DNA of 64,000 nucleotides from Terriglobia bacterium (GCA_965223005.1 CBDCVK010000010.1:160001-224000), one strand, 5' to 3'; positions 8,822 through 23,753 are shown, counted from the first letter of the stretch. Notes: generated by a model not told the origin, from the letters alone. Program-made: numbers and translations.

Positions 8822-8928
8822 GATTTTGTTCGAAGAACCAGGATGACCACGAGGCTGGCAACTGGGTACTACGATCACAGCCGGCGCCCGTCGGCGCTTC
8901 GGCTGCATCAGTGATACTGAAATAGGCC

Positions 8929-11502
8929 GTGCGGAATCCACTATTGCCGGTGGCCGCCGCTCTGGCCGGCGGCATTTACGATGAACGGTGGCTGCGCCTT
9001 CACGAGCAGGAGTACCTGCTTTGGATCAGCATCCTGTTGTGTGCCGCGGCGATCGCTTTGCGGCTGCGGCGCCCCGCCGGCGCCCTCGCCTTCGGGCTGC
9101 TGGGCACGGCGTTGGTCGGCTCCTTCTTCCTGTTCCACTGGCGGCACGATCGGCCGCCTGAGGATATCGCCAACCTCGTGGACGCCGGTCGCGTGGACCT
9201 CAGCGAACCCGCCCGGCTGACCGGCTGGATTGCCCAGGCAAGACTGCGTCGTGGCCGCGACGAAACCTACCTGTTGCGCCTGGAAGAAGTCGAGAGCCTG
9301 CAGCGAATCTGGCCTGCCTCTGGCACTATCCGCCTGCAGCACTTCATCCTTGACTCTTTCGAACCACGCCTGAGCCTGCGCTATGGCGAGCGGGTGAGCG
9401 TGCTGGCCCGCCTGCGGCCCGTCCGCGGCTTTCTCAATCCTGGCAGCTTCGACCGGCAAGGGCGCGCCCGCCGCCAGGGTGTGCTCTTCTACGCGAGCAT
9501 CAAGGCGGCGGAATTAGTCGAGAGGCTCTCGGGCCAGCGCGGCTCTCGATGGATGGCTGCTCTCGAGGGCCTGCGCCGTGCACTACTCGACCGCCTCGAT
9601 GCTCTGTTTCCGATACCGTCGCAGGCGAACGGGTTGCTCCGCGCTCTGCTGTTTGGAGACCGCTCAGGTCTGGATCGTCGAGTCCTGGAAAACTTTCGGA
9701 AGAGCGGTGCCTACCACGCCCTGGTTGTCTCCGGGCTCCACACTGCGGCCGTGGCCGGTTTCTTGCTGTTGCTGCCGCGCCTCTTTCGCTTGCCCCCACT
9801 TCCCGCCACGCTGCTGGCGCTGGCCGGCCTAGCCTGTTATGTCGCACTGGTCGGGAGGAGCGTGCCCACCCAGCGGGCTGCGGTCATGATTGGCCTGTAC
9901 CTGCTGGCCCGCCTGATCTACCGCGAACGCGCCCTGCTGAATACGATTGCCGCCGCCGCCTTGCTGCTGCTGATTCTCCATCCGGCCGACCTGAACGATG
10001 CGGGCTTCCAGCTTTCCTTCTTTGCCGTGCTGCTGATCGCCGCCATTGCCGTGCCCTTAATAGAGCAGACCTCGGCGCCTTACCGCAGGGCCGTGGAGGA
10101 CCTGGAGAATCGCGACCGCGATCTCACTCTGGCTCCCCCGCAGGCGCAGTTTCGCATCGAATTGCGAATGCTCGACGACGCCCTCGGCGAAAAAGTGCCA
10201 GCATGGCTTTTCCTGCCAGCCGTGCGCGGCGCTTTCCGTCTCTACGAACTGGTCGTGGTCTCGCTGGTGATTCAGGTAGGGTTTCTGTTGCCGCTGTCGG
10301 TCTATTTCTACCGTGCGAGCTGGGTTGGCGTGTCGGCCAATCTTTTCCTTGTGCCGCTTCTGGGGCTGGTGGTGCCGTTGGGAATGGCGACTCTGCTGCT
10401 GGCGCTCGTCTCCGAGACGCTGGCTGGACTGCTGGCCATTCCTCTGGCCGCGCTGCTGGGAATGATGCTGGCCGCGGCGCGCTGGCACGCTGGGCTGGCC
10501 CTGGCCTCCCTGCGCGTGCCGCCGCCTCCGCTGTGGGTCTCGGCAATGTTCCTGCTGGCGACGGCCCTGCTGGCCGGTAGCCTGCTGGCCCGCCGGGCCC
10601 GTCCGGTCGCAGCAGGCGCGCTAGCGCTGGCGGCCGCCGCGGTGCTCATCACCTGGCACCCTTTCCCGCCTCAATTGCCGCAGGGAGAGGTCGAGATTAC
10701 GACCCTCGATGTAGCCCAAGGCGATGCGCTGGTAGTGCTGGTCCCTCCGGAACGGGTGATGGTGGTGGATGTGGGCGGCTTGCCCGGGAGGCAAGTCGCC
10801 ACCGACACCGGCGAGATTGTCTCGGCTTACCTGTGGTCGCGTGGCATTCGCCGCATTGACGTGCTGGCTCTCAACCACGCCCATCACGATCATATGGCCG
10901 GCCTGGAAACGGTGATGACGAATTTCCAGGTTGCCGAACTGTGGCTCCCGTCGATCCCCGAGCTGGAAGCCTACCAGCGGCTCCAGCAAAGGGCCCGGCA
11001 ACGCGCTATCCCGGTGCACACCTACAGCCGGGGAGACACGGCCCGCCTGGGCGAGGCCACCGTCGCTTTTCTTTCCCCAGGCCCGAACTACCAACCGGCG
11101 CGGCGCCCGCACAATGACGATTCTTTGGTGATGCGACTCAGCTACGGCTGGCGCGCGGCGATGCTGGCCGGCGATGTGCAACAGACCATGGAAATGGAGA
11201 TATTGCGCGATAACGGTCCGCTGCAGGCCGACTGGCTGAAGGTGCCGCACCACGGGAGTAAGAGTTCGAACTCGCTGGAGTTCCTGTCTAAGGTGGGCGC
11301 CCCATACGGAGTGATTTCGGTAGCGGCTAACAGTCGCTTCGGTCACCCGCACCCGGAGGCTCTGGAGCGATTGCGCGATGCCCGCGTTCGCCTCTTCCGC
11401 ACCGACCGGGACGGCGCGGTCACCTGGGCCACCGATGGAAACCGCGTGCGCCTCAGCACCTTTCAGTGGGAGCGCCGCCGCGCCGCCATCGACCTGTGGT
11501 GA
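8929..11502 (+). CDS. comEC: ComEC/Rec2 competence protein
   Basis: HALVVSGLH, GFQLSF, many TM segments, metallo-beta-lactamase domain (LDVAQGD, HAHHDH, KVPHHGS, GHPH). Confidence 0.95.
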   Translation: MRNPLLPVAAALAGGIYDERWLRLHEQEYLLWISILLCAAAIALRLRRPAGALAFGLLGTALVGSFFLFHWRHDRPPEDIANLVDAGRVDLSEPARLTGWIAQARLRRGRDETYLLRLEEVESLQRIWPASGTIRLQHFILDSFEPRLSLRYGERVSVLARLRPVRGFLNPGSFDRQGRARRQGVLFYASIKAAELVERLSGQRGSRWMAALEGLRRALLDRLDALFPIPSQANGLLRALLFGDRSGLDRRVLENFRKSGAYHALVVSGLHTAAVAGFLLLLPRLFRLPPLPATLLALAGLACYVALVGRSVPTQRAAVMIGLYLLARLIYRERALLNTIAAAALLLLILHPADLNDAGFQLSFFAVLLIAAIAVPLIEQTSAPYRRAVEDLENRDRDLTLAPPQAQFRIELRMLDDALGEKVPAWLFLPAVRGAFRLYELVVVSLVIQVGFLLPLSVYFYRASWVGVSANLFLVPLLGLVVPLGMATLLLALVSETLAGLLAIPLAALLGMMLAAARWHAGLALASLRVPPPPLWVSAMFLLATALLAGSLLARRARPVAAGALALAAAAVLITWHPFPPQLPQGEVEITTLDVAQGDALVVLVPPERVMVVDVGGLPGRQVATDTGEIVSAYLWSRGIRRIDVLALNHAHHDHMAGLETVMTNFQVAELWLPSIPELEAYQRLQQRARQRAIPVHTYSRGDTARLGEATVAFLSPGPNYQPARRPHNDDSLVMRLSYGWRAAMLAGDVQQTMEMEILRDNGPLQADWLKVPHHGSKSSNSLEFLSKVGAPYGVISVAANSRFGHPHPEALERLRDARVRLFRTDRDGAVTWATDGNRVRLSTFQWERRRAAIDLW

Positions 11503-11648
11503 ATCTCACTGCGGGACTCGGCAGAATCTTCCACAAGGCCGCAGCTGCAAGAACTCAATCTGGCAAACGCTGGCACGTGGACGCTTGCTGGACTAAGGAG
11601 CGAAAACATATAATCGAACCGCACTGAGGCGCCCGTCCGGGATGAGCC

Positions 11649-11924
11649 ATGAGTACCGCAAGCGGGAGTCGTCTCCCGCGCAAACCCACCGAAGCTGAGA
11701 TTCGAGAAGAAAGCCGAAAAACACGGCGGCTCCAGTTCCTAGTGCACCTGGTGATGAGCGTGATCAGCCAGAGCCAGCACATGCCCATCGAGGAGGCTTC
11801 GTCGATGGTGGCGGCCACCAAGCGGGCGGCTCTGACCATGTTTCCGGACAAGGAATTTGCTTTCGACCTGATTTACAAGCCCCGCCTTCAAAGACTGCTC
11901 ACCGAAAAATACAGGATTCAATAG
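11649..11924 (+). CDS. Small hypothetical protein
   Basis: 91-aa ORF with ATG start and protein-like composition. Confidence 0.7.
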   Translation: MSTASGSRLPRKPTEAEIREESRKTRRLQFLVHLVMSVISQSQHMPIEEASSMVAATKRAALTMFPDKEFAFDLIYKPRLQRLLTEKYRIQ

Positions 11925-11977
11925 CACTGCGGTTTGGCATCTGGTAAGGATGTCAGCGGAGCGAGATCGCCTTTAGG

Positions 11978-12005
11978 TGGCGGAGAGGGAGGGATTCGAA
12001 CCCTC
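11978..12005 (-). other. tRNA-Ser 3'-end copy (putative att site, left island border)
   Basis: TGGCGGAGAGGGAGGGATTCGAACCCTC is the exact reverse complement of 62037-62064; no 5' half of a tRNA next to it. Confidence 0.85.
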
Positions 12006-12044
12006 ACTGTTTTCTGGAGCTACCTAAGTTACTGCTTTTCCCAT

Positions 12045-12100
12045 GGGGCGAACGGGGCAAAGGGAGCGAAAAGCAGTATCTGGGGCATACAAAAGCGAAC
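12045..12100 (+). repeat. 9-bp repeats next to the att copy (arm-site-like)
   Basis: GGGGCGAAC GGGGCAAAG GGAGCGAAA in tandem, then GGGGCATAC and AAAGCGAAC. Confidence 0.5.
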
Positions 12101-12211
12101 CTCATCACTTGCGTCATCACCGAGACAACCGGCGCCGTCCGGCCTTGCCAAGCGGTCTATCATTAAACTGGTGCGGTGCTACTTCCTGGGGCGTTCCTCC
12201 TGATAAGCATA

Positions 12212-12239
12212 GGTAAACACTGACCGACTAGTGGGGACC
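12212..12239. repeat. Palindromic 11-6-11 site A (left type)
   Basis: GGTAAACACTG-ACCGAC-TAGTGGGGACC. Confidence 0.85.
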
Positions 12240-12377
12240 TATCTGCCAAGTCTGAACTAGCTTTTTCCGTTTCAGAGAATTACTGCAGCCTGAGAAAGTA
12301 TTAAGAGCGCGGGAGATAGACCAGACCAGTCATAGGAGTGGTCGTATGTGGCTATAATCACTGACTTGAGGAGTTCC

Positions 12378-14105
12378 ATGCGGTCCCTCTTGAACGAGCT
12401 GCTTATAGCGGCCGTGTTTTCCCTCATGTGTCTTCCAGCTTTGGGCCAGTTTGCTCAACCTGCTTACTCGCGGCTGGACGCGCAGGGCACTCTTCCTGCG
12501 GGGCGCGTTGACGCACCCATTGTGTACGACACACCGGGCCGCCGCTTATTAATGTTTGGCGGGAAGGATGCCGCCAGTCCGCGCAGCGACCTTTGGGAGT
12601 ATTCCTTCGATCGCCGCGAGTGGACCGAGTTGAATCCATCCGGGACCTTGCCTCCAGCTCGTTTTGGACATACCACGGTCTTTGATCCTGTTCGCCGCCG
12701 CCTGGTCTTATTTGGGGGCCAGTCCTCGGGGTTTTTCAGCGACGTTTGGGCATACGATATCGCTCAAAACACGTGGCAACAGCTTAGCTCCGACGAGGCC
12801 GGTCCGAACCGCCGGTATGGTCATTCGGCGATTTACGATGCTGCGAGAGATCGCCTTATCATCTCGCACGGGTTTACGAACGCCGGCCGATTCGATGACA
12901 CCTGGGCCTTTGAGCTGGGGACAAACACTTGGCAAGAGATCTCATCTTCCGAAATCAGGCCACTCCGTCGCTGTTTACACCACTCGGTTTACGACGAAGA
13001 AAACGGGCAAATGCTGTTGTTCGGGGGGTGCGCCAGTGGATTCGGCCCGTGCCCCCTGGATGATCTATGGTCGTTCGATTTGAGCACAAACCAATGGACG
13101 GAGCGCGGTCCGGCCCCTAAACCGGCGGCCCGACAATGGTATGGCATGGCGTTTGATCACACTCGCAGTCGGCTAGTCCTGTTTGGCGGATTAGGCGGCG
13201 GCTCTCTCAACGACACTTGGGAGTACGACACAGTCGCCGACTCCTGGAACCAACTCGCGCCCAGCGGCGAGATTCCCGTTGGCAGGTTTCGGCACGAAGC
13301 CACTTTTGTTGCCGATCTAGGAGCAGTCCTGTTTTTCGGCGGTCGTGTCGACTCCGGTCCCAGCAACGAACTCTGGATGCTGTCCTACTCCTCAAACGCC
13401 GTCGTCAACGCCGCCACGTTTCTTCCTGGCCTTGCTGCTCCGGGGCAAATCCTCACCCTGTTCGGCACCGATCTGGCCTCGATGACCTCTGGGGCCGGGG
13501 CACCGCCATTGCCGACCATGCTTGGGGGAGCGAGCGTGAAATTGGGGGACTTCGACGCTCCGCTGTTCTTCGTCTCGGCGCTTCAAATCAATTTCCAAGT
13601 CCCCTGGGAATTGGCGGGGCAGTCGCAGGCGTCCCTGATCGTTGCAAACGGCGGTACCACAATCGGCCCGATGAATGTGAGTCTGGCTCCCTTTGCTCCT
13701 GGCCTGTTTAGCACCGATCAGAGCGGCAGCGGCCAGGGAGCTATCCTGATCTCCGGCAGCGGGGGAGCGGCAGCAGCGCCCAGTGGTGCTTTGCCTGGTT
13801 CTCGGCCAGTCAGGCGTGGTGAATTTATCGAAATCTTCTCTATCGGCCTTGGGGCTGTGGAGAAACAGCCCGCCACTGGCGCGCCGGCATTGGCAAATCC
13901 CTTGTCGATGAGCACCTCGACTCCCGTGGTCACCATTGGCGGCGTGCACGCCGCCGTCAGTTTTTCCGGACTGGCTCCTGGTTTCGTAGGGCTTTACCAA
14001 GTCAACGCGGAGGTTCCGGCTAATGCCCGCACGGGGGACGCCGTCCCCGTGGTTCTCACCATTGGTCGTGCCACGTCCAACACCGTTACGATCGCCGTGC
14101 AGTAG
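12378..14105 (+). CDS. Secreted Kelch-repeat protein with TIGR03437-type C-terminal domain
   Basis: Signal peptide, about six LFGG...DxW Kelch repeats, then VVNAATF..APGQILTLFG...APGFVGLYQVN...SNTVTIAVQ. Confidence 0.85.
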   Translation: MRSLLNELLIAAVFSLMCLPALGQFAQPAYSRLDAQGTLPAGRVDAPIVYDTPGRRLLMFGGKDAASPRSDLWEYSFDRREWTELNPSGTLPPARFGHTTVFDPVRRRLVLFGGQSSGFFSDVWAYDIAQNTWQQLSSDEAGPNRRYGHSAIYDAARDRLIISHGFTNAGRFDDTWAFELGTNTWQEISSSEIRPLRRCLHHSVYDEENGQMLLFGGCASGFGPCPLDDLWSFDLSTNQWTERGPAPKPAARQWYGMAFDHTRSRLVLFGGLGGGSLNDTWEYDTVADSWNQLAPSGEIPVGRFRHEATFVADLGAVLFFGGRVDSGPSNELWMLSYSSNAVVNAATFLPGLAAPGQILTLFGTDLASMTSGAGAPPLPTMLGGASVKLGDFDAPLFFVSALQINFQVPWELAGQSQASLIVANGGTTIGPMNVSLAPFAPGLFSTDQSGSGQGAILISGSGGAAAAPSGALPGSRPVRRGEFIEIFSIGLGAVEKQPATGAPALANPLSMSTSTPVVTIGGVHAAVSFSGLAPGFVGLYQVNAEVPANARTGDAVPVVLTIGRATSNTVTIAVQ

Positions 14106-14144
14106 CCCCTGACAAACCCAGTGTTTCTGAGGTTCGCGCTGGAC
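14101..14144. repeat. Degenerate right-type site plus linker start
   Basis: AGTAGCCCCTG-ACAAAC-CCAGTGTTTCT-GAGGTTCGCGCTGGAC aligns, with gaps, to site D and its flank. Confidence 0.4.
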
Positions 14145-14279
14145 ACGTCGTTGTGACTCTGATTCAATCCGAGGAACTGCGTGGCGGGTCGCATTTCCAA
14201 GCATTGCTCTCGGATGGCCAAACCTCGTTAGGTTTCCCCGCCGGCAGCGCGATGGCAATCTGGTGTTCGGATAAATGAC

Positions 14280-15599
14280 ATGCGAGACGAATTCACCCTT
14301 ACGCGTCGCCGGCTCATTGGTTCGAGTGTGGTGCTCGGAGCTTCAGGAGTAACCGCGGCCTCGGCGGCACTGAGCCCATCACACACTCGGCATCGCATCC
14401 ACCGGTCGGCACAATTACTCGCGCAAGAGTTTACCGTGGCTGCCAAGGTCCCCACGCCAGACCACTACATGCACGATCCAGGGATGACCCGGCTCGGCAA
14501 TGGTCGAATATTTGTCGCGGCGCCGTTAATGGGCTGGCGTGACAAGCGCGTAGCACGCCGAACCCGGAGTCTGCGTTTCATTGTGTCAAGAGAATTGCTT
14601 CTGTCTCGGAGTCGGGATGGAGGGAAGAGCTGGGAGTCTCTGCGGCCTTTACCGTACGTCAATGCAACTCCATTTGTTCATGACGGCAAGCTCTACATGA
14701 TGATCCCGACGGCAACCTATGAAACCCGGCACGATGGGGACAACAAGCTGCTTCTGCTCCGCAGCGATGATGAGGGTGATACCTGGTCCGACCCGGTCAC
14801 GCTGTTTGAAGGTAACTACTGGAATTGTCACACTGGCATGGCGACGGCGGGTGGCCAGCTCTATTGGGCCCTCACGAAAGGCGGCCGTCTCGTCGCGATT
14901 GCCGCCGACCTCTCGAAGGACTTGATGCAACCCGGCACGTGGCGGATGTCGAACGCCGTAAGCTTCCCCGGTGTGCCCCCTAGTCTTACTCGCGAGCTCT
15001 ATCCTCCAAAGGCGGGCGTATGGCCGGTCCAATGGGCTTCGGACGCATGGCTGGAGCCGAATGTTGTCCATGTTCACGGCCGCCTCCTCGTTCTGCTTCG
15101 CACGATCATTGACGAATACGCAACCGCGAGCCTTTGCAGCGTCTGCGACCTCGAGGACAGTGAATCGACGCTGAAGCTTTCCTTCTCGCAGTTCTATCCT
15201 CTCCCGGGCGGTCAGAACAAGTTCTTCATCCTTTACGACGACGTTTCCCGGCTGTTTTGGATGGCGTCCAATTTGGTGACCGATTCACAGGACTTTCAGA
15301 ACAACCGTGAAAGACTCATCGAGATCGGCTACCACGGAGGCCCAGGCAACGAACGTCGTCTCCTGTTTTTGTCCTACAGCCTCGACGCGTTGAATTGGTT
15401 TCCGGCTGGATGTATCGCCAAGTGGCCCAGTCCTCTGCAGGCATTCATGTATCCGTGCGTAGCGGTGGATGGGGACGACCTCGTGCTCATTTCTCGCACG
15501 TCGAAGGACGCTCAGAATCAGCACGACGCCGACCTGGTCACGTTCCACCGAATTCAGGACTTCCGGTCTTTGGCTCTGAACCTCCGTCCGGAGATCTAA
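14280..15599 (+). CDS. Tat-signal sialidase-like (BNR/Asp-box) protein
   Basis: TRRRLI signal; Asp boxes SRDGGKSW and SDDEGDTW. Confidence 0.75.
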   Translation: MRDEFTLTRRRLIGSSVVLGASGVTAASAALSPSHTRHRIHRSAQLLAQEFTVAAKVPTPDHYMHDPGMTRLGNGRIFVAAPLMGWRDKRVARRTRSLRFIVSRELLLSRSRDGGKSWESLRPLPYVNATPFVHDGKLYMMIPTATYETRHDGDNKLLLLRSDDEGDTWSDPVTLFEGNYWNCHTGMATAGGQLYWALTKGGRLVAIAADLSKDLMQPGTWRMSNAVSFPGVPPSLTRELYPPKAGVWPVQWASDAWLEPNVVHVHGRLLVLLRTIIDEYATASLCSVCDLEDSESTLKLSFSQFYPLPGGQNKFFILYDDVSRLFWMASNLVTDSQDFQNNRERLIEIGYHGGPGNERRLLFLSYSLDALNWFPAGCIAKWPSPLQAFMYPCVAVDGDDLVLISRTSKDAQNQHDADLVTFHRIQDFRSLALNLRPEI

Positions 15600-15781
15600 G
15601 CACAGAGCGCAACTCAAGGCTGCACCCCACCAGTACACGAGGGCAAGGGTGGTCAGGGCGGGCGGATTGCCGCTCACCTGCATACTCCTCTGCCCACGGA
15701 TTCCGGTCATTGTGTCTGAGAACCTACTGAGCCGTGTACCCACCATCCACCATGAGCGGCGTGGCGGTAATAAAGGAAGCC

Positions 15782-17220
15782 GAGAGTGTCTCACCTTTAG
15801 TTGAAAGTCGAGCGGCGGTTCGCTGACCTGGTTCCGTAGAATCGGGTTGGGAAACTTTCTGGAAAGGGGAACCGCCGTGCAGAGAAGCTACCACATCCTA
15901 GGCCGGAGCGATAGCCGAAGCTCCCGCAAACTGGCTGCCTACCTGGCTCGCCACGGGCAGTTTCTGCTGCCCTGGGTGGAGTTGATCGAACAATCGCGGT
16001 TAGCCGTCGACGAGCTGATCGACGTGGTGGGTAGGGCGGCGATTGAAGCGGTGCTGGAGTTGTCGGCCGCGCAGGTGGCCGGTCCACGCCGTCAGGGCCG
16101 GCGGCGCCGTGGGGTAGGCTGGTATGGGCGCCAGCGGGGACGGGTGCGCCTGAAGGAGAGAAAGCTGGCCGTGCACAGGCCACGGCTCCGGCGGCCAGGC
16201 CGGGGAGCGGGGAAAGAAGTTCCCCTCCCGGCCTACGAAGCCATGCAGGAGGGCGAGGGTCTGGGGGCCCGGATGTTGGATATCTTGCTGCGGGGCGTCT
16301 CGACCCGGCAGTACCAGCGGGTGTTGCCGGAGATGGCGGACACCGTGGGTGTGTCGCGCTCCACGGTCAGCCGGGAAACGATGGAGGCTGCCGCAGCCGA
16401 GTTAGAACGTCTGTTGAACCGCCGCTTCGAGGAAGTAGAGTTGCTGATCCTCTACATCGACGGGATGGTGTTTGGCGACCATCACGTGATTGCGGCTGTG
16501 GGCGTGGATGCGGAAGGGCACAAGCACGTGCTGGGGATTCAGGAGGGGGCTACGGAGAACGCCGCGGCCGTCCAGGACTTGCTGGAAGGTTTAGTGCGGC
16601 GAGGGGTGCAGCCGGCCCAGAAACGGCTGTTTGTGATCGACGGCTCGAAGGCCTTGCGGGCGGCGATCCGCGCCGTGTTCGGGGCCGAGCAGCCGGTGCA
16701 GCGCTGCCGCGCCCACAAGTTGCGCAACGTCCTGGACCGGTTGCCGGAGCCAGAGCGGGACCAGGTGCGGGCGGCGATGCGGGCCGCCTGGCGGTTGGAT
16801 CCGAAGACCGGCAGGGCCAAGCTGGAGAAGTTGGCCCAATGGTTGGAGCGAGATTGTCCGGCCGCGGCGGCCAGCTTGCGGGAGGGTCTGGAGGAATGTT
16901 TCACCATCAACCGGCTGGGGCTTCCGGCTTCGCTGCATCGCTGTCTGGCCACCACCAATCTCATCGAGAGTCCGCAGGCGGGAGTGAGGTTGCGAACTCG
17001 CCGGGTGTGCCGCTGGCGGGATGCGGCCATGGTCCAGCGCTGGGTCGCCTCCAGCTTCCTGGCCACGGAGAAAAACTTCCGCCGCCTGATGGGGTACCAG
17101 GACCTGTGGATGTTGAAAGCGATCCTCGAAGGATCAAAGTCGGCCACTCGACGGGAGGTGGCGTAGTATGATGGCTCCGAACCGCCGCTACGAACTTTCA
17201 ACTGAGTTCAGGACACCCTC
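15782..17220 (+). mobile_element. IS256-family insertion sequence
   Basis: About 40-bp imperfect TIRs (GAGAGTGTC..AGTTGAAAGT..AGCGGCGGTTCG); 8-bp TSD AGGAAGCC at 15774-15781 and 17221-17228. Confidence 0.95.
15877..17166 (+). CDS. IS256-family (Mutator-like) DDE transposase
   Basis: GVSTR, YIDG, VIDGSKAL, QRCRAHKLRN, TTNLIES motifs. Confidence 0.93.
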   Translation: MQRSYHILGRSDSRSSRKLAAYLARHGQFLLPWVELIEQSRLAVDELIDVVGRAAIEAVLELSAAQVAGPRRQGRRRRGVGWYGRQRGRVRLKERKLAVHRPRLRRPGRGAGKEVPLPAYEAMQEGEGLGARMLDILLRGVSTRQYQRVLPEMADTVGVSRSTVSRETMEAAAAELERLLNRRFEEVELLILYIDGMVFGDHHVIAAVGVDAEGHKHVLGIQEGATENAAAVQDLLEGLVRRGVQPAQKRLFVIDGSKALRAAIRAVFGAEQPVQRCRAHKLRNVLDRLPEPERDQVRAAMRAAWRLDPKTGRAKLEKLAQWLERDCPAAAASLREGLEECFTINRLGLPASLHRCLATTNLIESPQAGVRLRTRRVCRWRDAAMVQRWVASSFLATEKNFRRLMGYQDLWMLKAILEGSKSATRREVA

Positions 17221-17992
17221 AGGAAGCCTCCTCAGAGGCAAGGAAGAGAATGGCATTCGCCACTTCGCGAGGATCGCCCATGCGCTTGATGAAATGCAGC
17301 GGTGCATACAGTTCCACTACCTGTTCCTTGGTCAGTCCCTTACTTGTGGCATCGCGCATTGTGGCGGGGGTATCTATAGCTCCCGGGCAGACGCAATTCA
17401 CGCGAATGTTATCCGGCGCCAGATCGAAGGCTAGGCATCGTGTCATCTGCAGCACTGCCCCTTTGCTGGCATTGTAGGGGACAAAAGCAGGCTGCGCGAT
17501 GAATGAGCTAATGGAGCCCAGGTTTACGATGGACCCGCCTCCGCGCTTTCGCATGTGGGGGACAGCGTACTTGGAGCAGAACGCGTACCCTTTGACGTTC
17601 ACGTTCAGGACCCGGTCCCAATCCTGCTCGCTGGCCTCTTCCACTGTTCCGAAAACAAAGGCCGCCGCGTTGTTCACCAGGATATCCGGGCCACCCAGTT
17701 CGCGGGCAGCGGTGTTCATCAGCTCCCGCACTTCGGACTCGATGGAGATATCGGTCTTGTGAAAGAAGGTCCTACCGCCGGCAGCTTTGATCCGGGCCAC
17801 AGTCTCCTCGCCGCCGCGGACGTCTAGGTCCGCTACACAAACAGCAGCGCCCTCCTCGGCAAAACGAATTGCCGTAGCCCGGCCAATTCCCGAACTTGAG
17901 CCGGTAACCACCGCCACTTTGTTCGCTAGACGCATGTTCTCCTCCTCAGCTCATTTCACCTGCGGCTTTCAGAACTTCTGCCTCAAAACATG

Positions 17993-18090
17993 AGTAAACA
18001 CTAACGGGCTAGCGTTTACCAATGTTCTGCCTGGATGGTATGGCGTTCCTTAGTTAAGGATAGGTAAACACTAACCGACAAGTGGAAACC
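17993..18090. repeat. Site pair B1 + 42-bp linker + B2
   Basis: AGTAAACACTA-ACGGGC-TAGCGTTTACC, linker, GGTAAACACTA-ACCGAC-AAGTGGAAACC. Confidence 0.9.
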
Positions 18091-18200
18091 TACCTGCCAA
18101 GTCGGAGCCAACTCTTGCCGTATTAGGAAGGCCGCCGCTGATCACCGAGAGACAGATCGTGGCTGAAACCGCGTTCTGAGTGTGAGGGGAAAGAGAACTC

Positions 18201-19034
18201 TCACGGGTCACGGCGTTTCGGTGGGGCAGCTGACACGCCTTCTAAGCCACCACTGACTCTGAGCACCTCGCCCGTGATCCAAGAGGCTGCCGGACTGCAC
18301 AGAAAAGCAACGCTCCGTGCGATATCGGCTGGCTCTCCCCATCGCCCCAGCGGGATAGCGCTGCGAATGCGCTCAATCATCTGATCCTCGCTGAGATTCA
18401 GGGTTTGGCAGCGCTGCGCCATGACGGTCTTGTTAAATTCCGTGTAGACAGGCCCCGGACTCACGGCGTTTACCCGCACGCCGTAGGCGGCAAGCTCTAG
18501 TGCCAACGTCTTGGTCAGACTGATCACACCGGCCTTGGCCACGTTGTAGGCCGCGACCAGCGCTGCTGGATTCTGGCCGTTGATGGAGGCAATATTGACG
18601 ATACACCCGGATCCCTGCCGCTCCATGATTCGTGCTGCGGCGCGGCAACAACAGAACGTTCCGGTCAAGGTGACACCTAGGACGCGTGCCCATTCCTGGT
18701 CTGTCAGATGGACGACCGGGGCGACGTCTTGTCCAACACCGGCATTGTTGACCAGAATGTCCAACCGACCGTATTCAGCAACTGTCCTGTCGAAGAACCC
18801 GGTCACCCCACTACTGGCGGAGATATCCAAATGGGCTGGCTGCACATTCGAACCTTGCTCCCGCAACCTTTGGGCCGATGCCTGTGCATTTTCCAGTCTG
18901 ATGTCAGCTATGATCACCCCGGCGCCGTCGCAGGCAAGCTGCTCAGCGATCCCCAAGCCCAGCCCCTGGGCCGCTCCGGTCACCACCGCAACTAAGCCAT
19001 CCAGCCTATGCAAAGAAGTCGTACCTTCACTCAT
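18201..19034 (-). CDS. SDR family oxidoreductase
   Basis: TGAAQGLG, NNAG, YNVAK, VNAVSPG motifs. Confidence 0.92.
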   Translation of the reverse strand: MSEGTTSLHRLDGLVAVVTGAAQGLGLGIAEQLACDGAGVIIADIRLENAQASAQRLREQGSNVQPAHLDISASSGVTGFFDRTVAEYGRLDILVNNAGVGQDVAPVVHLTDQEWARVLGVTLTGTFCCCRAAARIMERQGSGCIVNIASINGQNPAALVAAYNVAKAGVISLTKTLALELAAYGVRVNAVSPGPVYTEFNKTVMAQRCQTLNLSEDQMIERIRSAIPLGRWGEPADIARSVAFLCSPAASWITGEVLRVSGGLEGVSAAPPKRRDP

Positions 19035-19143
19035 GAACGAACTCCCTTGATGCATTATCCCCGTCCAGCAAGACTACAGAGTCGGCCACAGCTACCACAT
19101 GACCGATCCGGCCAATGGACGTCAAGGTCTTACTCATTGGGTT

Positions 19144-19503
19144 TCATGGGCGGTCTCGGAGCGGTATTAACTCTCGGCAATTGGTAACGAAAGCATCAAG
19201 ATTATCAGGGACGAATCTAATACGCGGTGGCCAACCTCGCCTCCGGACGTACACGTGTGGATGGAATGCGGCCCAATCGTTATTGTACGACCACCAAGTC
19301 TCAATCGGGCGACGGAAAGCATCGGCAGCCACCGGCTTGGGACGTACGCCGATCTCTATGATCTTGTCGAATGGAATCTTGATCGCGTGGAAAAGAATCC
19401 GTGCTTCCAGCTCAATTCGGTCGCGGTAGATACGATACTCTTGACGCCAACTGAGACGGTGGGGATTGGAAACGTAAACCGGATCGTCTGTCGCGCTTCC
19501 CAT
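19144..19503 (-). CDS. Hypothetical protein
   Basis: 119-aa ORF, GAGGA upstream of ATG. Confidence 0.65.
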   Translation of the reverse strand: MGSATDDPVYVSNPHRLSWRQEYRIYRDRIELEARILFHAIKIPFDKIIEIGVRPKPVAADAFRRPIETWWSYNNDWAAFHPHVYVRRRGWPPRIRFVPDNLDAFVTNCRELIPLRDRP

Positions 19504-19555
19504 TCCTCGACTCGTTGACCTCAGCCACTACCCCAGAGTCAATTTACCGACCTGC

Positions 19556-19891
19556 TCATTGAGCCTTAGTTAGTTCAACACCGTCCACGACCATTTTCCA
19601 TCTACCGCCTTCTTGGTAAGGCGGCTTGGAAACGACGAAGATGGTTGAAAGGAATGAGATACCAACAGAGAAATCATCGCCTTGGAATCCTTGGAGAGGC
19701 CCAGTAATTGACGTTTTTCTCCCTTCCTTAAGCCGTTCGTATTCTATGCTCCCGTCTTGTGTAATTAACAGATACATTTCTGGGGCCCTCCACTGGCCAA
19801 CGTAGTCTGCTTTGTCAGCCGGGACTGGTTTGCCACAACTGGACAGAAATAACGTGAGAAGAAGGATTGCGGGAATTGCTCGAACGTTCAT
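19556..19891 (-). CDS. Hypothetical lipoprotein
   Basis: MNVRAIPAILLLTLFLSSC lipobox. Confidence 0.75.
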   Translation of the reverse strand: MNVRAIPAILLLTLFLSSCGKPVPADKADYVGQWRAPEMYLLITQDGSIEYERLKEGRKTSITGPLQGFQGDDFSVGISFLSTIFVVSKPPYQEGGRWKMVVDGVELTKAQ

Positions 19892-20171
19892 ATGGTGTCC
19901 CTTAGCTGGAATTTCCGGTTTCAACCCTTGCTCGGCTCCAGATTCTGGCCGGTCATGCGCCCCCCTCTTGCCGGCCATGCTACGCCCCGCCCCGCAGCCA
20001 AGTCAACGCGGCGACCCGGCCAGGCGCCGTTAGCTCTGCCGTCGTTGACAGTTTAAGGCCCGCGCGACCTAGACTCTGCCACATCTCTCCATTAGGCCCT
20101 TAGCCGCGCCACTGATTCCTCGGTGGCATAGCCTGCTCGCATGGTTGCCCCGTGATCCTGAATGCCGGATA

Positions 20172-20268
20172 GGTCTTCCCTAACGGGCTAGCGTTTACCA
20201 ATGTTCTGCCTGGATGGTATGGTGTTCCTTAGTAAGGATAGGTAAACACTAACCGACTAGTTGGGGCC
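20172..20268. repeat. Site pair C1 + 41-bp linker + C2
   Basis: GGTCTTCCCTA-ACGGGC-TAGCGTTTACC, linker nearly identical to that in [29 protein letters not shown]. Confidence 0.9.
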
Positions 20269-20302
20269 TATCTGTCACGGCACTAGTTCGAGGAGGTGGT
20301 TC

Positions 20303-20827
20303 ATGATTCGAAGATCAACCCTGGTTTCGACGCTCTTTCTCTTGGTCTCGGTGTCGGCGATCTCTCTCGCGGCGGACCACAAGAGGATTTTGACTGTTGA
20401 TGTTGCGTTGGCGAAAATCGCCGGCGGTGCCCTGACTGCGAGCAGCACGACCTCTCTACCGGTTCTCTATTTCGACACCGCCCAGGTGGCTGCCGCCTTT
20501 GACCGGGGCGCGGTGGTGCTGGGCGAAGAGCCCGGGCGCAACTACCAGGTGCACGCCAGTCGGCGCGAAAAAGCCGGCGAGGTTGAAGTACACCTGTTGG
20601 ATACGGATATTTTCTATGTGCTCCGAGGCACCGCAACTTTCGTCACCGGAGGCACGGTCGTGGGCGGAAAGACAACCGCGCCGAATGAGATCCTTGGGGC
20701 ATCCATCCGCGACGGCAAGACTCACCAGTTAGTTAAAGGCGACGTCATCATCGTGCCTCAAAGCACGCCCCACTGGTTCAAGCAAGTGAAGGCGCCCTTC
20801 CTCTACTTCGTTGTTAAAGTGCGCTGA
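20303..20827 (+). CDS. Secreted cupin-domain protein
   Basis: AGGAGGT RBS, signal peptide, EVH..DTDIFYVLRG and GDVIIVP..TPHWF cupin motifs. Confidence 0.85.
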   Translation: MIRRSTLVSTLFLLVSVSAISLAADHKRILTVDVALAKIAGGALTASSTTSLPVLYFDTAQVAAAFDRGAVVLGEEPGRNYQVHASRREKAGEVEVHLLDTDIFYVLRGTATFVTGGTVVGGKTTAPNEILGASIRDGKTHQLVKGDVIIVPQSTPHWFKQVKAPFLYFVVKVR

Positions 20828-20851
20828 GGTCGGGTTCAGCAATGCCGGATA

Positions 20852-20928
20852 GGTCCACACTAACGGGCTAGTGTTTACTTACGTTCCAGCCTGGACGTAT
20901 CTGGACGCCGGGAGGATCTATCTGGCAT
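20852..20928. repeat. Site D (right type), partial linker and remnant left-type tail
   Basis: GGTCCACACTA-ACGGGC-TAGTGTTTACT; then GATCTATCTGGCA, resembling the GACCTATCTGCCA tail of site A. Confidence 0.85.
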
Positions 20929-21068
20929 AATTGGTCCATCCGTGTTTGAAGCGCCAGGCTCTGGGGGGCTAAGCGTCGGGACGCGAGAGCCTCACAAACG
21001 CGTTTTTCGCCACTACGACGCGTGCACGGACCGGGAAGACCGTCGGTTCGCGGCAGGTGTCGTGATGA

Positions 21069-22163
21069 ATGGAACAACCCGTGCAACTTAGCAAAACCAC
21101 TTTCCCCTTCCTGCTGATAACAGCATTTCTGTTTTCATGCGGTACACCAAGAGCGCCCGAGAAGGCCACTGCTCCAGTCGAGGGAAAAATCGTCCCGACC
21201 GACGCCAAGCTGGAACACGTTTTCACGCGAACGGCCGACATCAAGGGAGGCCTGACAGAGGGACCGGCAGTGGCACCCGACGGCAGCATCTACTTTTCGG
21301 ACATCGCCTTCGGAAAAGACAAAGGCATGATCCTGCGCTTGGACCCGAAAACAGGCGAAACCACTGTCTTTGCCAAAGACAGCCACAAGTCCAACGGGCT
21401 AGCCTTCGACGCCGAGGGTCATTTGATCGCCGCCGAGGGGGCCGACTACGGCGGCCGGCAGATTTCGCGCTGGAACGTTGAAACCGGCAAGCGCACAACA
21501 TTGGCGGACAACTACAAGGGCAAGAAATTTAACGCGCCCAACGACCTCGCTATCGACAACCGGGGACGCGTCTACTTCAGCGATCCGCGATACCTGGGCC
21601 CGGAAACTCGCGATCTCGACTACTTCGCTATTTTCAGGGTCAACAAAGATGGGACGGTCATTGAAATTACTCGCGAGGTAGCTAAACCGAACGGTGTGGC
21701 CCTTAGCCTGGATGAGAAAACGCTTTACGCAGCCGACCTCGACAACGGGAGTGAGCATGTCGACGACCCTAATGCGCCGCCCGCAACGCCGGGACCAATG
21801 AAAGTCTATGCTTTCCCACTCAGTCCAGATGGCTTGGTATCGGGCGAACGGAAGACCCTAGTGGACTTTGGAGACCAAGCCGGCTGCGACGGCATGACCG
21901 TGGACGAAGAAGGAAACATCTATCTGGCGGTCCGCAGCGCGAAACGTCCCGGGGTAATGATCATAAATCCCGAAGGCGAAGAACTCGGGTTCATCCCCAC
22001 AGGTCCGCCCCACCAGGAAGGCGCGGAGAAACTAGTGGGCTTGCCAAGCAATGTCGAATTCGGCATCGGCGAAGAAGCGAACGTGCTCTATGTGACCATC
22101 GACACCAGCCTTTACCGGGTCCGGCTCAACGTTGGAGGCTCCCATCCTCACCACGCGCAGTAG
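21069..22163 (+). CDS. SMP-30/gluconolactonase family lipoprotein
   Basis: LFSC lipobox; TEGP, SNGL, FNAPND, PNG, CDGMTVD, PSNVEFG motifs. Confidence 0.9.
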   Translation: MEQPVQLSKTTFPFLLITAFLFSCGTPRAPEKATAPVEGKIVPTDAKLEHVFTRTADIKGGLTEGPAVAPDGSIYFSDIAFGKDKGMILRLDPKTGETTVFAKDSHKSNGLAFDAEGHLIAAEGADYGGRQISRWNVETGKRTTLADNYKGKKFNAPNDLAIDNRGRVYFSDPRYLGPETRDLDYFAIFRVNKDGTVIEITREVAKPNGVALSLDEKTLYAADLDNGSEHVDDPNAPPATPGPMKVYAFPLSPDGLVSGERKTLVDFGDQAGCDGMTVDEEGNIYLAVRSAKRPGVMIINPEGEELGFIPTGPPHQEGAEKLVGLPSNVEFGIGEEANVLYVTIDTSLYRVRLNVGGSHPHHAQ

Positions 22164-22166
22164 TGT

Positions 22167-22230
22167 GGCGAATGACAAAGCTTGCGCCCCCGGGTTCACG
22201 TGCCTGCCCGGCTGCAGCGGCTTGTTAGGC
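22167..22230. repeat. Degenerate attC-like site
   Basis: Minus strand reads GCCTAAC-AAGCC-GCTGCAGC (R''-5 nt-L''); the other half is decayed. Confidence 0.5.
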
Positions 22231-22467
22231 ATCAACATGCCCTTCCAAGACCCTGCGTCCCATCCGGCCTGAAGAGCCGGCCGGCAACATCGGCGTCCCC
22301 GACGAGAAGTTCTCTCATGAGCTTCTCGATCTCGCCGTCCACAAGGAGCCGGCTAGAAGAGCACAAGTCCGATCGGCCTTCTCAGTGAGCGAGCGTCTGA
22401 ACTCCAGCACTTCACCCAGGCAAAGGTTGATCTCCGGTGACAACTGGCCTAGCTTGTCACTATGCAT
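22225..22467 (-). pseudogene. Frameshifted, truncated gene-cassette remnant (MltR-like by recollection)
   Basis: MHSDK..EVLEFRRSLTEKADRTCALLAGS / VDGEIEKLMRELLVGDADVAGRLFRPDG..VDA*; the stop TAA lies inside GCCTAAC. Confidence 0.5.
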
Positions 22468-22495
22468 AGTCGTTCACGCTTTGCCTGCACGTTGT

Positions 22496-22578
22496 GCCTA
22501 ACGACCAGGCGCTGCAGCCAAACCCTCGCTTTTGGCGGCTTTGCTGCAGCCCGGCTCTGCTGTAGCCTATCGTTAGGC
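22496..22578. repeat. attC-like site (83 bp)
   Basis: GCCTAAC...GTTAGGC termini with internal complementary GCTGCAGC/GCTGTAGC boxes. Confidence 0.65.
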
Positions 22579-22628
22579 CCGCTTGGCCGACAGTCGTGAG
22601 ACAATTCGTCCGTTGGAGGAGCAAACCG

Positions 22629-23726: not shown

Positions 23727-23753
23727 GATGGGATGGTGCGAAGGAGGTTGAAC

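What the first reader, a model, noticed from the sequence alone, without database searches (positions are those of the whole stretch)
12190..20930. Array of gene modules bracketed by paired lox/dif-like palindromic sites: candidate undescribed cassette-shuffling system
Seen: six clear intergenic sites with 11-6-11 geometry; the arms extend to about 15 bp (consensus GATAGGTnnnCACTA). Left-type sites with spacer ACCGAC are at 12212, 18063 and 20241. Right-type sites with spacer ACGGGC are at 17993, 20172 and 20852. A right site is followed by a near-identical 41-42-bp linker (AATGTTCTGCCTGGATGGTATGGYGTTCCTTAGT(T)AAGGATA) and then a left site. In five of the six sites the conserved GTAAAC arm faces the linker and a variable arm faces the cargo. 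Enclosed cargo: an SDR plus two small ORFs (18091-20171), a single cupin gene (20269-20851), and the Kelch gene onward from 12240. Known: inverted arms around a 6-8-bp asymmetric spacer are the substrate geometry of tyrosine recombinases (dif/XerCD, loxP, Acinetobacter pdif modules). Site D matches E. coli dif at 7/11 positions in each arm. Inference: the two spacer classes would pair only like with like, so same-class direct repeats could excise linker+cargo units (680 bp between 20172 and 20852; 2178 bp between 18063 and 20241). That would be an integron-like array using double-stranded sites instead of attC. No recombinase is in the window, so it would act in trans or has been lost.
Basis: partly seen in the sequence, partly recalled or inferred. 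Interest (0 to 1): 0.88.

Follow-up and report, generated by a model that had tools for sequence, protein, structure and literature searches.

The report
Gene-carrying transposon ends, not lox sites
The paired palindromes that bracket these genes are the inner parts of the two ends of a family of small transposase-less jumping elements that ferry single genes around the genomes of one soil-bacterial genus, so the genes are indeed mobile cassettes but most likely move by ordinary cut-and-duplicate transposition rather than by a new lox/dif-type recombination system.

Summary
The six 11-6-11 palindromes are real. They belong to 57 such cores spread over six contigs of this 3.2-Mb genome, none inside a called gene. 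There are two classes: L (centre ACCGAC) and R (centre ACGGGC).

They are not free-standing sites. In about 40% of copies each core lies 50-75 nt inside a longer, asymmetric terminal inverted repeat whose tip is a conserved 19-nt motif.

Units bounded by inward-facing tips carry 8-bp flanking duplications:
- 8 of 12 pairs fetched from two congeners match at 7 or 8 of 8 positions.
- 22 of 34 pairs in soil metagenome contigs do the same.
- Chance gives 11 in 20,000.

One element in a congener faces a clean empty site here. Cargo is diverse, and no matching transposase was found inside any element examined.

The window's array is 8.9 kb, three fused units with shortened ends. One congener has 94 nt in its place. 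In another, its genes are scattered elsewhere.

Three orthologous frames hold different cargo in two genomes, including frames that lack the cores.

The tyrosine-recombinase mechanism is not supported. The mobilising enzyme and the role of the palindromes remain unknown.

The parts
11942..20889 (.). 8.9-kb island holding the whole array. In congener G002 it is replaced by 94 nt that end in a remnant of a right terminus.
   Evidence: G002 contig C92 matches window 7293-11941 and 20890-24348 at 94-95% identity, with 94 nt between. GC is 0.575 (IS removed), against 0.65 for the left flank and 0.615 for the genome.
11978..12005 (-). tRNA-like 3' fragment (T-arm, acceptor strand, CCA) at the left edge of the island. 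Not a complete tRNA.
   Evidence: Read from the sequence. ARAGORN finds no gene in 11500-12400. Weak tmRNA 3'-end match. The contig-depth bin 11734-12100 is 15 to 70 times deeper than its neighbours in four runs.
12189..12250 (+). Left end of unit 1: a shortened, degenerate outer segment plus L core A (arms 12209-12222 and 12229-12242, spacer ACCGAC 12223-12228).
   Evidence: (61 bits).
12348..15599 (+). Cargo of unit 1: Kelch beta-propeller protein with a Soli_cterm domain (12348-14105) and a BNR-like protein (14280-15599).
   Evidence: Pfam. TIGR03437, 212.6 bits. In G001 an R core closes this unit right after the BNR gene; that 493-bp piece is missing here.
15782..17220 (+). IS256-family insertion sequence nested in the array, with 8-bp duplication AGGAAGCC. 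Unrelated to the repeat family.
   Evidence: Transposase_mut, 135.8 bits. Absent at this place in G001. Contigs of three runs join 15773 to 17221. Its ends do not resemble the family's termini.
17219..17935 (-). Short-chain dehydrogenase 1, lying between the lost R end of unit 1 and junction B/C.
   Evidence: In G003 the gene lies at another locus with no end nearby.
17992..18093 (+). Fossil junction 1: R core B (hybrid arms), a 39-nt linker, then L core C.
   Evidence: Alignment with full back-to-back junctions of G001 shows that the linker is what remains after loss of most of both outer arms.
18201..19978 (-). Cargo of unit 2: short-chain dehydrogenase 2 (18201-19055) and two small ORFs without a family (19144-19503, 19556-19978).
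   Evidence: In G003 the dehydrogenase and the second small ORF lie at two different loci.
20169..20271 (+). Fossil junction 2: R core D, a 38-nt linker, then L core E.
   Evidence: A 96% identical copy lies in G001, about 270 kb from the rest of the array and inverted.
20261..20827 (+). Cargo of unit 3: a single cupin-domain protein.
20840..20889 (+). Right end of unit 3: R core F (20849-20879) plus a short outer segment. Homology with G002 resumes at 20890.
   Evidence: (53 bits).
20890..20930 (+). Remnant of the inner part of another, oppositely oriented R end, in front of the gluconolactonase-like gene (21069-22163). It is part of the flank shared with G002.
   Evidence: In G003 (L084) the same gene is preceded by a complete reversed R end.

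Best explanation
The L and R palindromes are sub-terminal modules of the left and right ends of a family of non-autonomous, cargo-carrying transposable elements with terminal inverted repeats.

Anatomy of a full element:
- a 19-nt tip;
- about 35-55 nt of end-specific sequence;
- the L core at one end and the R core at the other, which is the same two arms in the opposite order around a different 6-nt centre;
- between them, usually one to three genes of any kind and no transposase.

Shown:
- insertion duplicates 8 bp of target;
- an empty site exists in a related genome;
- copies differ in place and content between congeners.

Inferred:
- The cutting and joining is done in trans by a DDE-type transposase that makes 8-bp staggered cuts. 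Its gene was not identified.
- Elements often sit head to tail. Inner ends that have mutated or lost their tips then fuse neighbours into composite arrays.
- Cargo turns over inside fixed frames by nested or tandem insertion, followed by homologous deletion or exchange between the repeated ends.

The window's array is such a composite: three units whose inner junctions have shrunk to R core + about 40 nt + L core.

The palindromes themselves are a genus-specific addition to the ends. They are most likely a dyad binding site for a protein (an accessory factor or a second transposase contact). This last point is a guess.
For: (1) Dispersed and extragenic. There are 57 cores on 6 contigs, and 0 of 57 lie in called genes, which cover 84.5% of the genome.

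(2) Left and right ends align as inverted repeats over about 100 nt in clean units. A recognisable outer tip lies 20-130 nt outside 12 of 22 L cores and 13 of 35 R cores.

(3) 8-bp flanking duplications:
- G000: 8/8 at C10:899896-901951 and 7/8 at C2:490628-492202, among 7 inward pairs.
- G001/G003: 8/8 in 5 and 7/8 in 3 of 12 pairs.
- Metagenomes: 8/8 in 14 and 7/8 in 8 of 34 pairs.
- Chance: 11 of 20,000 random pairs reach 7/8.
- The duplicated 8-mers are unrelated to one another.

(4) Empty site. The 881-bp element of G003 (L053) is absent from G000, which carries the target 8-mer once.

(5) A 310-bp cargo-less copy exists with an 8/8 duplication (L052).

(6) Cargo is diverse: Kelch, SDR, cupin, alpha/beta hydrolase, cNMP-binding, GNAT, HNH, TPR and several without a family. 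No protein family recurs in more than 3 of 120 metagenome loci.

(7) The array is missing from G002, and its genes are dispersed in G003.

(8) Same flanks and same ends but different cargo in G000 versus G001 at three loci.

(9) Seven back-to-back junctions in three genomes, at 6 or more loci, share a related 8-9-nt gap. Most share the same mutated inner tip, as expected for one fossil junction carried along in composites.
Against: - No autonomous copy or matching transposase was found. None of the IS families of G000 has similar ends (IS256, IS5/IS1182-like, IS3, IS1380). The nested IS21- and IS30-family copies have their own ends or limits. IS1595-family genes in the genus show no matching inverted repeats.
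- The three window units themselves show no recognisable intact tips and no target duplications, so their membership rests on homology of the ends.
- 4 of the 12 relatives' pairs, 12 of the 34 metagenome pairs and 5 of the 7 G000 pairs lack a convincing duplication.
- The strict conservation of two different 6-nt centres across the genus has no explanation under plain transposition.
- In G003 three of the cargo genes sit without any detectable end, so how they were captured is unknown.
- Gene calls come from a simple home-made caller.
Confidence: 0.7

Rival explanations
1. First reader's model. L and R are heterospecific core sites of a trans-acting tyrosine recombinase. Like pairs with like, so units are excised, inserted or swapped, as in engineered cassette exchange with two incompatible lox sites. 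The transposon-type ends would be a separate layer.
For: - The geometry fits: 14-15-bp imperfect inverted arms around a 6-nt centre.
- Two centre classes are conserved. In G000, ACCGAC is found in 13 of 22 L cores and ACGGGC in 20 of 35 R cores. In the relatives the counts are 9 of 20 and 11 of 20.
- The two arms of each core differ in a conserved way.
- Some L cores keep the outer arm and spacer while the cargo-side arm is replaced.
- Cargo differs inside identical frames.
- 3 of the 12 PF00589 hits lie within about 1.5 kb of a core: C10:108233, C10:114492 (a fragment) and C10:1549955.
Against: - No recombinase lies in the window, and none is consistently beside cores.
- The cargo replacements seen involve at least one partner without cores on one or both sides.
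- 120 metagenome loci with the same tips have 0 cores yet carry duplications, so the cores are dispensable for mobility.
- Homology breakpoints are not consistently at the spacers.
- The bias toward variable cargo-side arms may be an ascertainment effect of how cores were found.
Confidence: 0.1
2. The cores and their junctions are REP/BIME- or REPIN-like extragenic palindromes. They would be spread by an HUH tyrosine transposase (RAYT or TIRYT) acting on single-stranded hairpins, and they bracket genes only because they settle between genes.
For: - Extragenic, moderately abundant, genus-specific.
- Mosaic combinations of two palindrome types in alternating orientation with set linkers.
- The 19-nt tip contains GTAG at positions 2-5, the tag of many REPs according to passages of PMC3733652.
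- That paper also reports TIR-flanked tyrosine transposases and TIR repeat families in several Acidobacteria (passages).
Against: - Y1_Tnp (PF01797) gives 0 matches in G000 (96% complete) and in G003.
- The weak matches in G001 and G002 have no tips or cores in their loci.
- HUH transposition makes no target duplication, but 8-bp duplications and an empty site are seen.
- The hairpins are weak as single-stranded DNA: -3.5 to -5.7 kcal/mol, and 3 of 6 fold no better than shuffles.
- The strict L-then-R pairing is not expected of independent REP insertions.
Confidence: 0.07
3. The palindromes are operators or other regulatory sites (a dimeric transcription factor, an insulator or a terminator) that were carried along with, or selected in, the ends. 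They control expression of the cargo and play no part in DNA movement.
For: - Dyad symmetry with two boxes per half-site, and half-site centres about two helical turns apart.
- A conserved stretch follows many L cores up to the cargo start.
- The cores are dispensable for mobility in metagenome relatives.
Against: - Cargo reads away from the L core as often as not: by my count, 13 of the 22 genes next to an L core run the same way as it and 9 run the opposite way.
- There is no T-run after the hairpins, and the terminator-like hits at cores are marginal.
- No regulator gene is associated with them.
- This reading does not explain why two centre classes are tied to the left and right ends.
Confidence: 0.08

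Closest known systems
Mobile insertion cassettes (MICs) and cargo-carrying MITE derivatives, such as the IS231-derived MICs of the Bacillus cereus group and Tn3-derived TIMEs/MICs of Pseudomonas and Xanthomonas
   Same: Passenger genes without a transposase between transposon-type inverted repeats. A fixed-length target duplication. Cargo-less miniature copies alongside. Mobilisation presumed to be in trans.
   Different: - No parent insertion sequence with the same ends was found.
- The ends are much longer (about 100 bp), asymmetric and built from modules, one of which is a palindromic core with an end-specific centre.
- The duplication is 8 bp. The figures of 5 bp for Tn3 derivatives and 10-12 bp for IS231 are recalled.

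   Basis: the MIC231 details are recalled. For PMC4133298, PMC4337579, PMC6542083 and PMC6199540 only the search listing (title and start of abstract) was seen.
dif/pdif (Xer) modules of Acinetobacter plasmids
   Same: Gene modules bracketed by oppositely oriented 11-6-11-type sites with two unlike arms. The same modules are found in different contexts.
   Different: - Here the sites lie inside transposon ends.
- The units carry target duplications.
- The sites are chromosomal and intergenic throughout the genome.
- No Xer-type dependence is shown.

   Basis: recalled. Only the listing of bioRxiv 10.1101/2022.12.17.520857 was seen.
REP / BIME / REPIN elements with RAYT or TIRYT transposases
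   Same: Extragenic imperfect palindromes of two types, combined in alternating orientation with set linkers. A GTAG in the tip. Specific to one lineage.
   Different: - Target duplications are present.
- There is no Y1 transposase in two of the four genomes of the genus.
- Copy number is far lower, and the units enclose genes.

   Basis: passages of PMC3733652.
Integron gene cassettes with attC sites
   Same: Arrays of mostly single-gene units separated by imperfect palindromic junctions built of two simple sites. Content varies between relatives.
   Different: - Cargo orientation is mixed.
- The junctions are fused transposon ends.
- Single-strand folding is weak.
- Units carry target duplications.
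- No integron integrase was looked for specifically.

Membership tests
Non-autonomous TIR transposon (MITE / mobile insertion cassette) | Terminal inverted repeats at both ends | tested here: met
   Left and right ends align as inverted repeats over about 100 nt in clean units. The 19-nt tip is shared by 29 places in G000 (up to 3 mismatches), and by 41, 27 and 13 places in G001, G003 and G002 (up to 2 mismatches).
Non-autonomous TIR transposon (MITE / mobile insertion cassette) | Target-site duplication of fixed length, of unrelated sequence | tested here: met
   8-bp duplications matching at 7 or 8 of 8 positions in 2 of 7 G000 pairs, 8 of 12 relatives' pairs and 22 of 34 metagenome pairs. 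Random expectation is 11 of 20,000.
Non-autonomous TIR transposon (MITE / mobile insertion cassette) | Presence/absence polymorphism with an empty site holding one copy of the target | tested here: met
   G003 L053 compared with G000 C10:1620477-1620486.
Non-autonomous TIR transposon (MITE / mobile insertion cassette) | No transposase of its own inside | tested here: met
   The 12 relatives' elements hold cargo, or nested IS of other families, only. No protein family recurs in more than 3 of 120 metagenome loci, and none is a transposase.
Non-autonomous TIR transposon (MITE / mobile insertion cassette) | A cognate autonomous element or transposase with the same ends | tested here: not met
   The ends of five IS families of G000 are unlike the family's ends. 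The IS21- and IS30-family copies inside or beside elements have their own ends or limits. IS1595-family genes lack matching repeats.
Non-autonomous TIR transposon (MITE / mobile insertion cassette) | The three window units themselves have tips and duplications | tested here: inconclusive
   Their outer segments are shortened and degenerate. No duplication could be assigned. The right limit at 20889/20890 coincides with a remnant right tip in G002.
Tyrosine-recombinase site system (dif/pdif modules, lox-type) | Inverted arms around a 6-8-bp central region | tested here: met
Tyrosine-recombinase site system (dif/pdif modules, lox-type) | A dedicated or co-occurring recombinase | tested here: inconclusive
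   None lies in the window. There are 12 PF00589 hits in the genome, and 3 lie within about 1.5 kb of a core. No functional link was tested.
Tyrosine-recombinase site system (dif/pdif modules, lox-type) | Conservative exchange at the central region, with no target duplication | tested here: not met
   Units carry 8-bp duplications outside the ends. Homology breakpoints are not consistently at the spacers.
Tyrosine-recombinase site system (dif/pdif modules, lox-type) | Excised circles or like-with-like junctions | tested here: inconclusive
   Only assembled contigs could be laid. Among the 15 joints listed there is no 680-bp or 2178-bp back-joint, and 2 joints were not shown. Contigs drop rare forms.
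Integron cassettes / attC | attC folds as a stable single-stranded hairpin; cassettes are co-oriented | tested here: not met
   The two junctions fold at z -1.4 and -1.1. Cargo orientation is mixed, 13 to 9 by my count.
Integron cassettes / attC | Integron integrase (IntI) nearby or in the genome | not tested
   The PF00589 hits were not subtyped.
REP/BIME with RAYT | Associated HUH Y1 transposase | tested here: not met
   PF01797 gives 0 matches in G000 and G003. The weak matches in G001 and G002 have no repeats in their loci.
IS1595-family derivative | 8-bp duplication and passenger genes (family traits recalled, not checked in a source) | tested here: inconclusive
   The duplication length fits. 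A degraded IS1595-like gene lies inside one G001 element next to its end. No intact copy with these ends was found.

The most novel reading that the evidence does not exclude
A genus of soil bacteria runs a two-layer gene-cassette system.

Layer 1: single genes are packaged between transposon ends that an unlinked, possibly domesticated, chromosomal transposase moves.

Layer 2: the genus-specific L and R palindromes, with their two incompatible centres, act as heterospecific recombination sites. These would let cargo be swapped between frames without inverting it, a natural counterpart of engineered recombinase-mediated cassette exchange.
Probability: 0.1. Interest if true: 0.8.

Novelty: new variant of a known kind. 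Interest (0 to 1): 0.5.

Why it matters
If the reading holds, many ordinary single genes in this lineage are packaged as small mobile units with no transposase of their own. Examples are dehydrogenases, cupins, hydrolases, acetyltransferases and surface proteins.

The same 19-nt end occurs in more than 120 soil metagenome contigs. The family may therefore be a common, so far unnoticed route of gene-sized exchange in soil bacteria of this group. The Soli_cterm domain of one cargo protein points to Acidobacteria.

Open points of interest to mobile-DNA specialists:
- which enzyme moves elements that are never linked to it;
- why the ends in one genus acquired paired palindromes with two fixed centres;
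- how cargo is replaced inside frames that stay in place.

For annotation, such sites should not be read as dif- or lox-like recombination sites from geometry alone.

Tried and rejected
- Rfam scan of 11500-21500 found nothing relevant: two weak chance-level hits.
- No tRNA gene at the left edge.
- The hunt for the transposase failed:
  - all-against-all paralogue search of G000 proteins;
  - ends of five IS families;
  - interiors of 12 + 16 relatives' loci;
  - clustering of 344 interior ORFs from 120 metagenome loci;
  - IS21-like copy shown to be nested, with its own TG...CA ends;
  - IS30-like copy shown to be an independent 1230-bp IS;
  - the apparent IS1595-like ORF in G001 L058 is a truncated transposase piece fused to a HAD hydrolase gene;
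  - ten IS1595-family loci of G001/G003 show no matching inverted repeats.
- RAYT idea: no Y1_Tnp in G000 or G003.
- Circle search: only assembled contigs of public runs could be laid. The 8002-nt back-joint seen in four runs is the paralogous junction at C2:519273/519336 laid on the window. The 12242-to-20840 joint (one contig, 32 nt on the short side) is probably another locus. No 680-bp or 2178-bp back-joint is listed. This cannot show absence.
- The idea that L-core breakpoints sit exactly after the spacer was dropped. One of three cases turned out to be a diverged arm.
- Promoter and terminator scans gave nothing above shuffles at the cores.
- Supplementary files of PMC3733652, which list TIR families of Acidobacteria, could not be seen and may bear on prior description.


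Full report
**1. The observation**

The region was read directly.
- L cores, with AAAC-type arm, ACCGAC, then GGGG-type arm: 12209-12242, 18060-18093 and 20238-20271.
- R cores, with the same two arm types in the opposite order around ACGGGC: 17992-18020, 20169-20199 and 20849-20879.

A loose core pattern hits 7 times in the window against 1.23 expected; 0 of 100 shuffles reach 7. The two R+linker+L junctions share 54 nt at 98%. Site B is a hybrid with AAAC-type arms on both sides.

No PF00589 recombinase lies in the window.
- a Kelch protein with a Soli_cterm domain;
- a BNR-like protein;
- two short-chain dehydrogenases;
- two small ORFs without a family;
- a cupin.

An IS256-family insertion sequence (15782-17220, duplication AGGAAGCC) is nested in the array.

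**2. The sites are a dispersed repeat with much longer conservation**

The window is C10:160001-224000 of a 3.24-Mb, 10-contig genome, G000 (96% complete). Profiles built from 10 L and 11 R copies find 57 cores at E<1e-3: 22 L and 35 R, on contigs C2, C3, C5, C6, C8, C9 and C10. None lies inside a gene called by a simple codon-usage caller, whose genes cover 84.5% of the genome.

An R core is an L core turned round with another centre. Read from the AAAC-type arm, the centres are ACCGAC (L) and GCCCGT (R).
- In G000, ACCGAC is found in 13 of 22 L cores and ACGGGC in 20 of 35 R cores.
- In 42 loci fetched from three congeners the counts are 9 of 20 and 11 of 20.
- The rest are one-letter variants or unreadable.

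The repeat is confined to the genus among the genomes searched. It was found in 3 of 3 congeners. One weak hit occurred in another genus of the family and one in another family, out of 40 relatives.

**3. L and R are the two ends of units**

Among the 27 neighbouring core pairs that lie 150-10,000 nt apart, 13 are an L followed by a same-strand R. None of 20,000 label shuffles reaches 13.

Extending the alignments outward shows that in many copies the core lies inside a long end. The end consists of:
- a 19-nt tip (GGTAGTGGGTCAGTTTCCG, or a related second variant);
- 35-55 nt of sequence that differs between the L and R sides;
- the core.

Left and right ends of clean units align as inverted repeats over about 100 nt. 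A tip is recognisable 20-130 nt outside 12 of 22 L cores and 13 of 35 R cores. The others, including all six in the window, have shortened or degenerate outer segments.

**4. The units are transposable elements**

The 8 nt outside the two tips are direct repeats.

| Set of inward-facing tip pairs | 8/8 | 7/8 | Weaker or none |
|---|---|---|---|
| G000, 7 pairs | 1 (C10:899896-901951) | 1 (C2:490628-492202) | 5 |
| G001 and G003, 12 pairs | 5 | 3 | 4 (one at 6/8, one at 5/8, one at 4/8, one not scored) |
| 120 soil-metagenome loci with the exact 19-mer, 34 pairs | 14 | 8 | 12 |

- Of 20,000 random pairs of 8-mers, 11 reach 7/8.
- The duplicated 8-mers are unrelated to one another. They are therefore target duplications, not a common recombination core.
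- An 881-bp element of G003 is absent from G000, which carries the target GGAAGCGA once at C10:1620477-1620486.
- A 310-bp copy without cargo exists.
- Cargo is diverse: alpha/beta hydrolase, cNMP-binding protein, GNAT acetyltransferase, HNH nuclease, TPR protein, Soli_cterm-type proteins and several without a family.

**5. No transposase goes with them**

- None of the five multi-copy IS families of G000 has similar ends.
- An IS21-family copy inside a 5-kb G001 element has its own TG...CA ends and a second copy elsewhere.
- An IS30-family copy next to a tip is an independent 1230-bp IS.
- An IS1595-like reading frame inside the same G001 element is a truncated piece fused to a HAD hydrolase gene.
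- G000 has one intact IS1595-family gene. G001 and G003 have many diverged ones. Ten such loci show no matching inverted repeats.
- Among 344 interior ORFs of the metagenome loci, no family recurs in more than 3 loci, and none is a transposase.
- Y1 (HUH) transposases are not found in G000 or G003. The weak matches in G001 and G002 have no repeats in their loci.

The 8-bp staggered duplication points to a DDE-type enzyme acting in trans. This is an inference. The families that make 8-bp duplications are recalled, not checked in a source.

**6. The cores are an add-on**

The 120 metagenome loci (707 kb) that carry the same tip contain no L or R core at E<1e-3. Several elements of G001 and G003 also lack cores, yet have duplications. 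The cores are therefore not needed for movement.

As single-stranded DNA the cores fold weakly: -3.5 to -5.7 kcal/mol, and 3 of 6 fold no better than shuffles. This speaks against a hairpin role of the REP or attC kind. It leaves a double-stranded dyad site for a protein as the most likely role. That role is not shown.

**7. Arrays and fossil junctions**

Right ends abut left ends with a gap of 8-9 nt at seven places in three genomes, at six or more different loci. The gaps are related to one another (CCCGCCAG and one- or two-letter variants). The inner right tip mostly carries the same mutated form.

This fits one ancestral junction whose inner ends are dead, carried along in composite elements while the neighbouring cargo changed.

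Aligned with two full junctions of G001, the window's linkers of about 40 nt are what is left after most of both outer arms was lost. The window's array is thus three units fused by two fossil junctions. In G001 unit 1 is still closed by an R core after the BNR gene; that 493-bp piece is missing in G000.

**8. Variation between genomes**

- G002 matches window 7293-11941 and 20890-24348 at 94-95%. It has 94 nt in place of 11942-20889, and that stretch ends in a remnant right tip.
- G001 has the array, but split by a rearrangement at about 19452-19455, which is not at a site. The cupin part lies about 270 kb away and inverted.
- G003 has no array at the locus.
  - The BNR gene, both dehydrogenases and one small ORF lie at four other loci, at 88-94% identity.
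  - Only the BNR gene there is next to an R core.
  - The left flank is only 85% identical between G000 and G003.
- At three orthologous frames, with the same flanks and the same end pieces, G000 and G001 hold unrelated cargo: C10:899896-901951, C2:389500-390818 and C3:128625-129872.
  - At the first of these the duplication is also the same.
  - At least one partner lacks cores on one or both sides.

Cargo turnover therefore does not need the cores. Nested or tandem insertion followed by homologous deletion or exchange between the repeated ends would explain it. This is inferred.

**9. The recombinase model**

In its favour:
- the geometry of the sites;
- the two conserved centres, each tied to one end;
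- the conserved difference between the two arms;
- a few L cores whose cargo-side arm is replaced right after the spacer;
- 3 of 12 integrase-family genes within about 1.5 kb of a core.

Against it: everything in sections 4 and 6, and the lack of consistent breakpoints at the spacers.

Assembled contigs of four public runs were laid on 11000-22000.
- They show the IS256-free form in three runs.
- An 8002-nt back-joint is the paralogous junction of contig C2.
- No 680-bp or 2178-bp back-joint appears among the listed joints.
- Contigs cannot show rare circles.

**10. Comparison with what is known**

The nearest kind is the mobile insertion cassette, or cargo-carrying MITE derivative. Three defining features are met: inverted repeats, fixed duplication and an empty site. 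The parent transposase is missing.

It resembles pdif modules, integron cassettes and BIMEs in layout. It fails a defining feature of each (see the membership table).

Searches for a description of such elements in Acidobacteria found none. The nearest paper is PMC3733652, of which passages were read. It reports TIR repeat families and tyrosine transposases in other Acidobacteria. Its supplementary lists could not be seen.

**Verdict**

The cassette-like mobility is real. The mechanism is most likely trans-mobilised transposition, not a lox/dif-like system. The enzyme and the role of the paired palindromes are open.

Noticed in passing
window 27075-27743: Tandem duplication with a period of about 380-390 nt. 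Three pairs of segments of 56-64 nt are 100% identical (families D4-D6).
   Followed up: no
window 11978-12005 (- strand): A tRNA-like 3' end (T-arm, acceptor strand, CCA) without the rest of a tRNA lies at the left edge of the island. In contigs of four public runs the depth bin 11734-12100 is 15 to 70 times deeper than its neighbours. This may be a relic of an integrase-type insertion.
   Followed up: partly
window 15782-17220: The IS256-family element is present at 11 or more places in G000 at 99-100% identity. Contigs of three public runs join 15773 to 17221, which is the form without the IS. The IS appears to be currently active or polymorphic.
   Followed up: partly
window about 19452-19455, compared with L043/L044 (G001): Synteny with G001 breaks inside the small ORF 19144-19503. 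The two halves lie about 270 kb apart and inverted in G001, and each is followed there by unrelated DNA.
   Followed up: no
G000 C10:618849-619808, and many loci of G001 and G003 (L207-L224): IS1595-family transposase genes are numerous and strongly diverged in the genus (13 matches in G003). No detectable inverted repeats flank them. Where two copies are alike (L211 and L224, 95%), the likeness is limited to the gene plus about 100 nt upstream.
   Followed up: partly
G001 L067 1504-1549, compared with G000 C10:1139763-1139766: A solitary 46-nt left end, with no partner and no duplication, is present in G001 and absent from G000. The whole surrounding segment of more than 7 kb occurs twice in G001, in inverted orientation (L067 and L074).
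   Followed up: no
window 8929-11502: The gene just left of the island is a ComEC-type competence protein (Competence, DUF4131 and Lactamase_B domains). Uptake of foreign DNA followed by exchange through the repeated ends is therefore conceivable.
   Followed up: no
G000 C3:128953-129750, C10:94661-95524, C10:249008-249967, C10:1572244-1572879: A family of TPR-repeat genes ends with the same C-terminal coding stretch directly in front of an R core at four or more loci. Gene end and R end seem to have spread together.
   Followed up: partly
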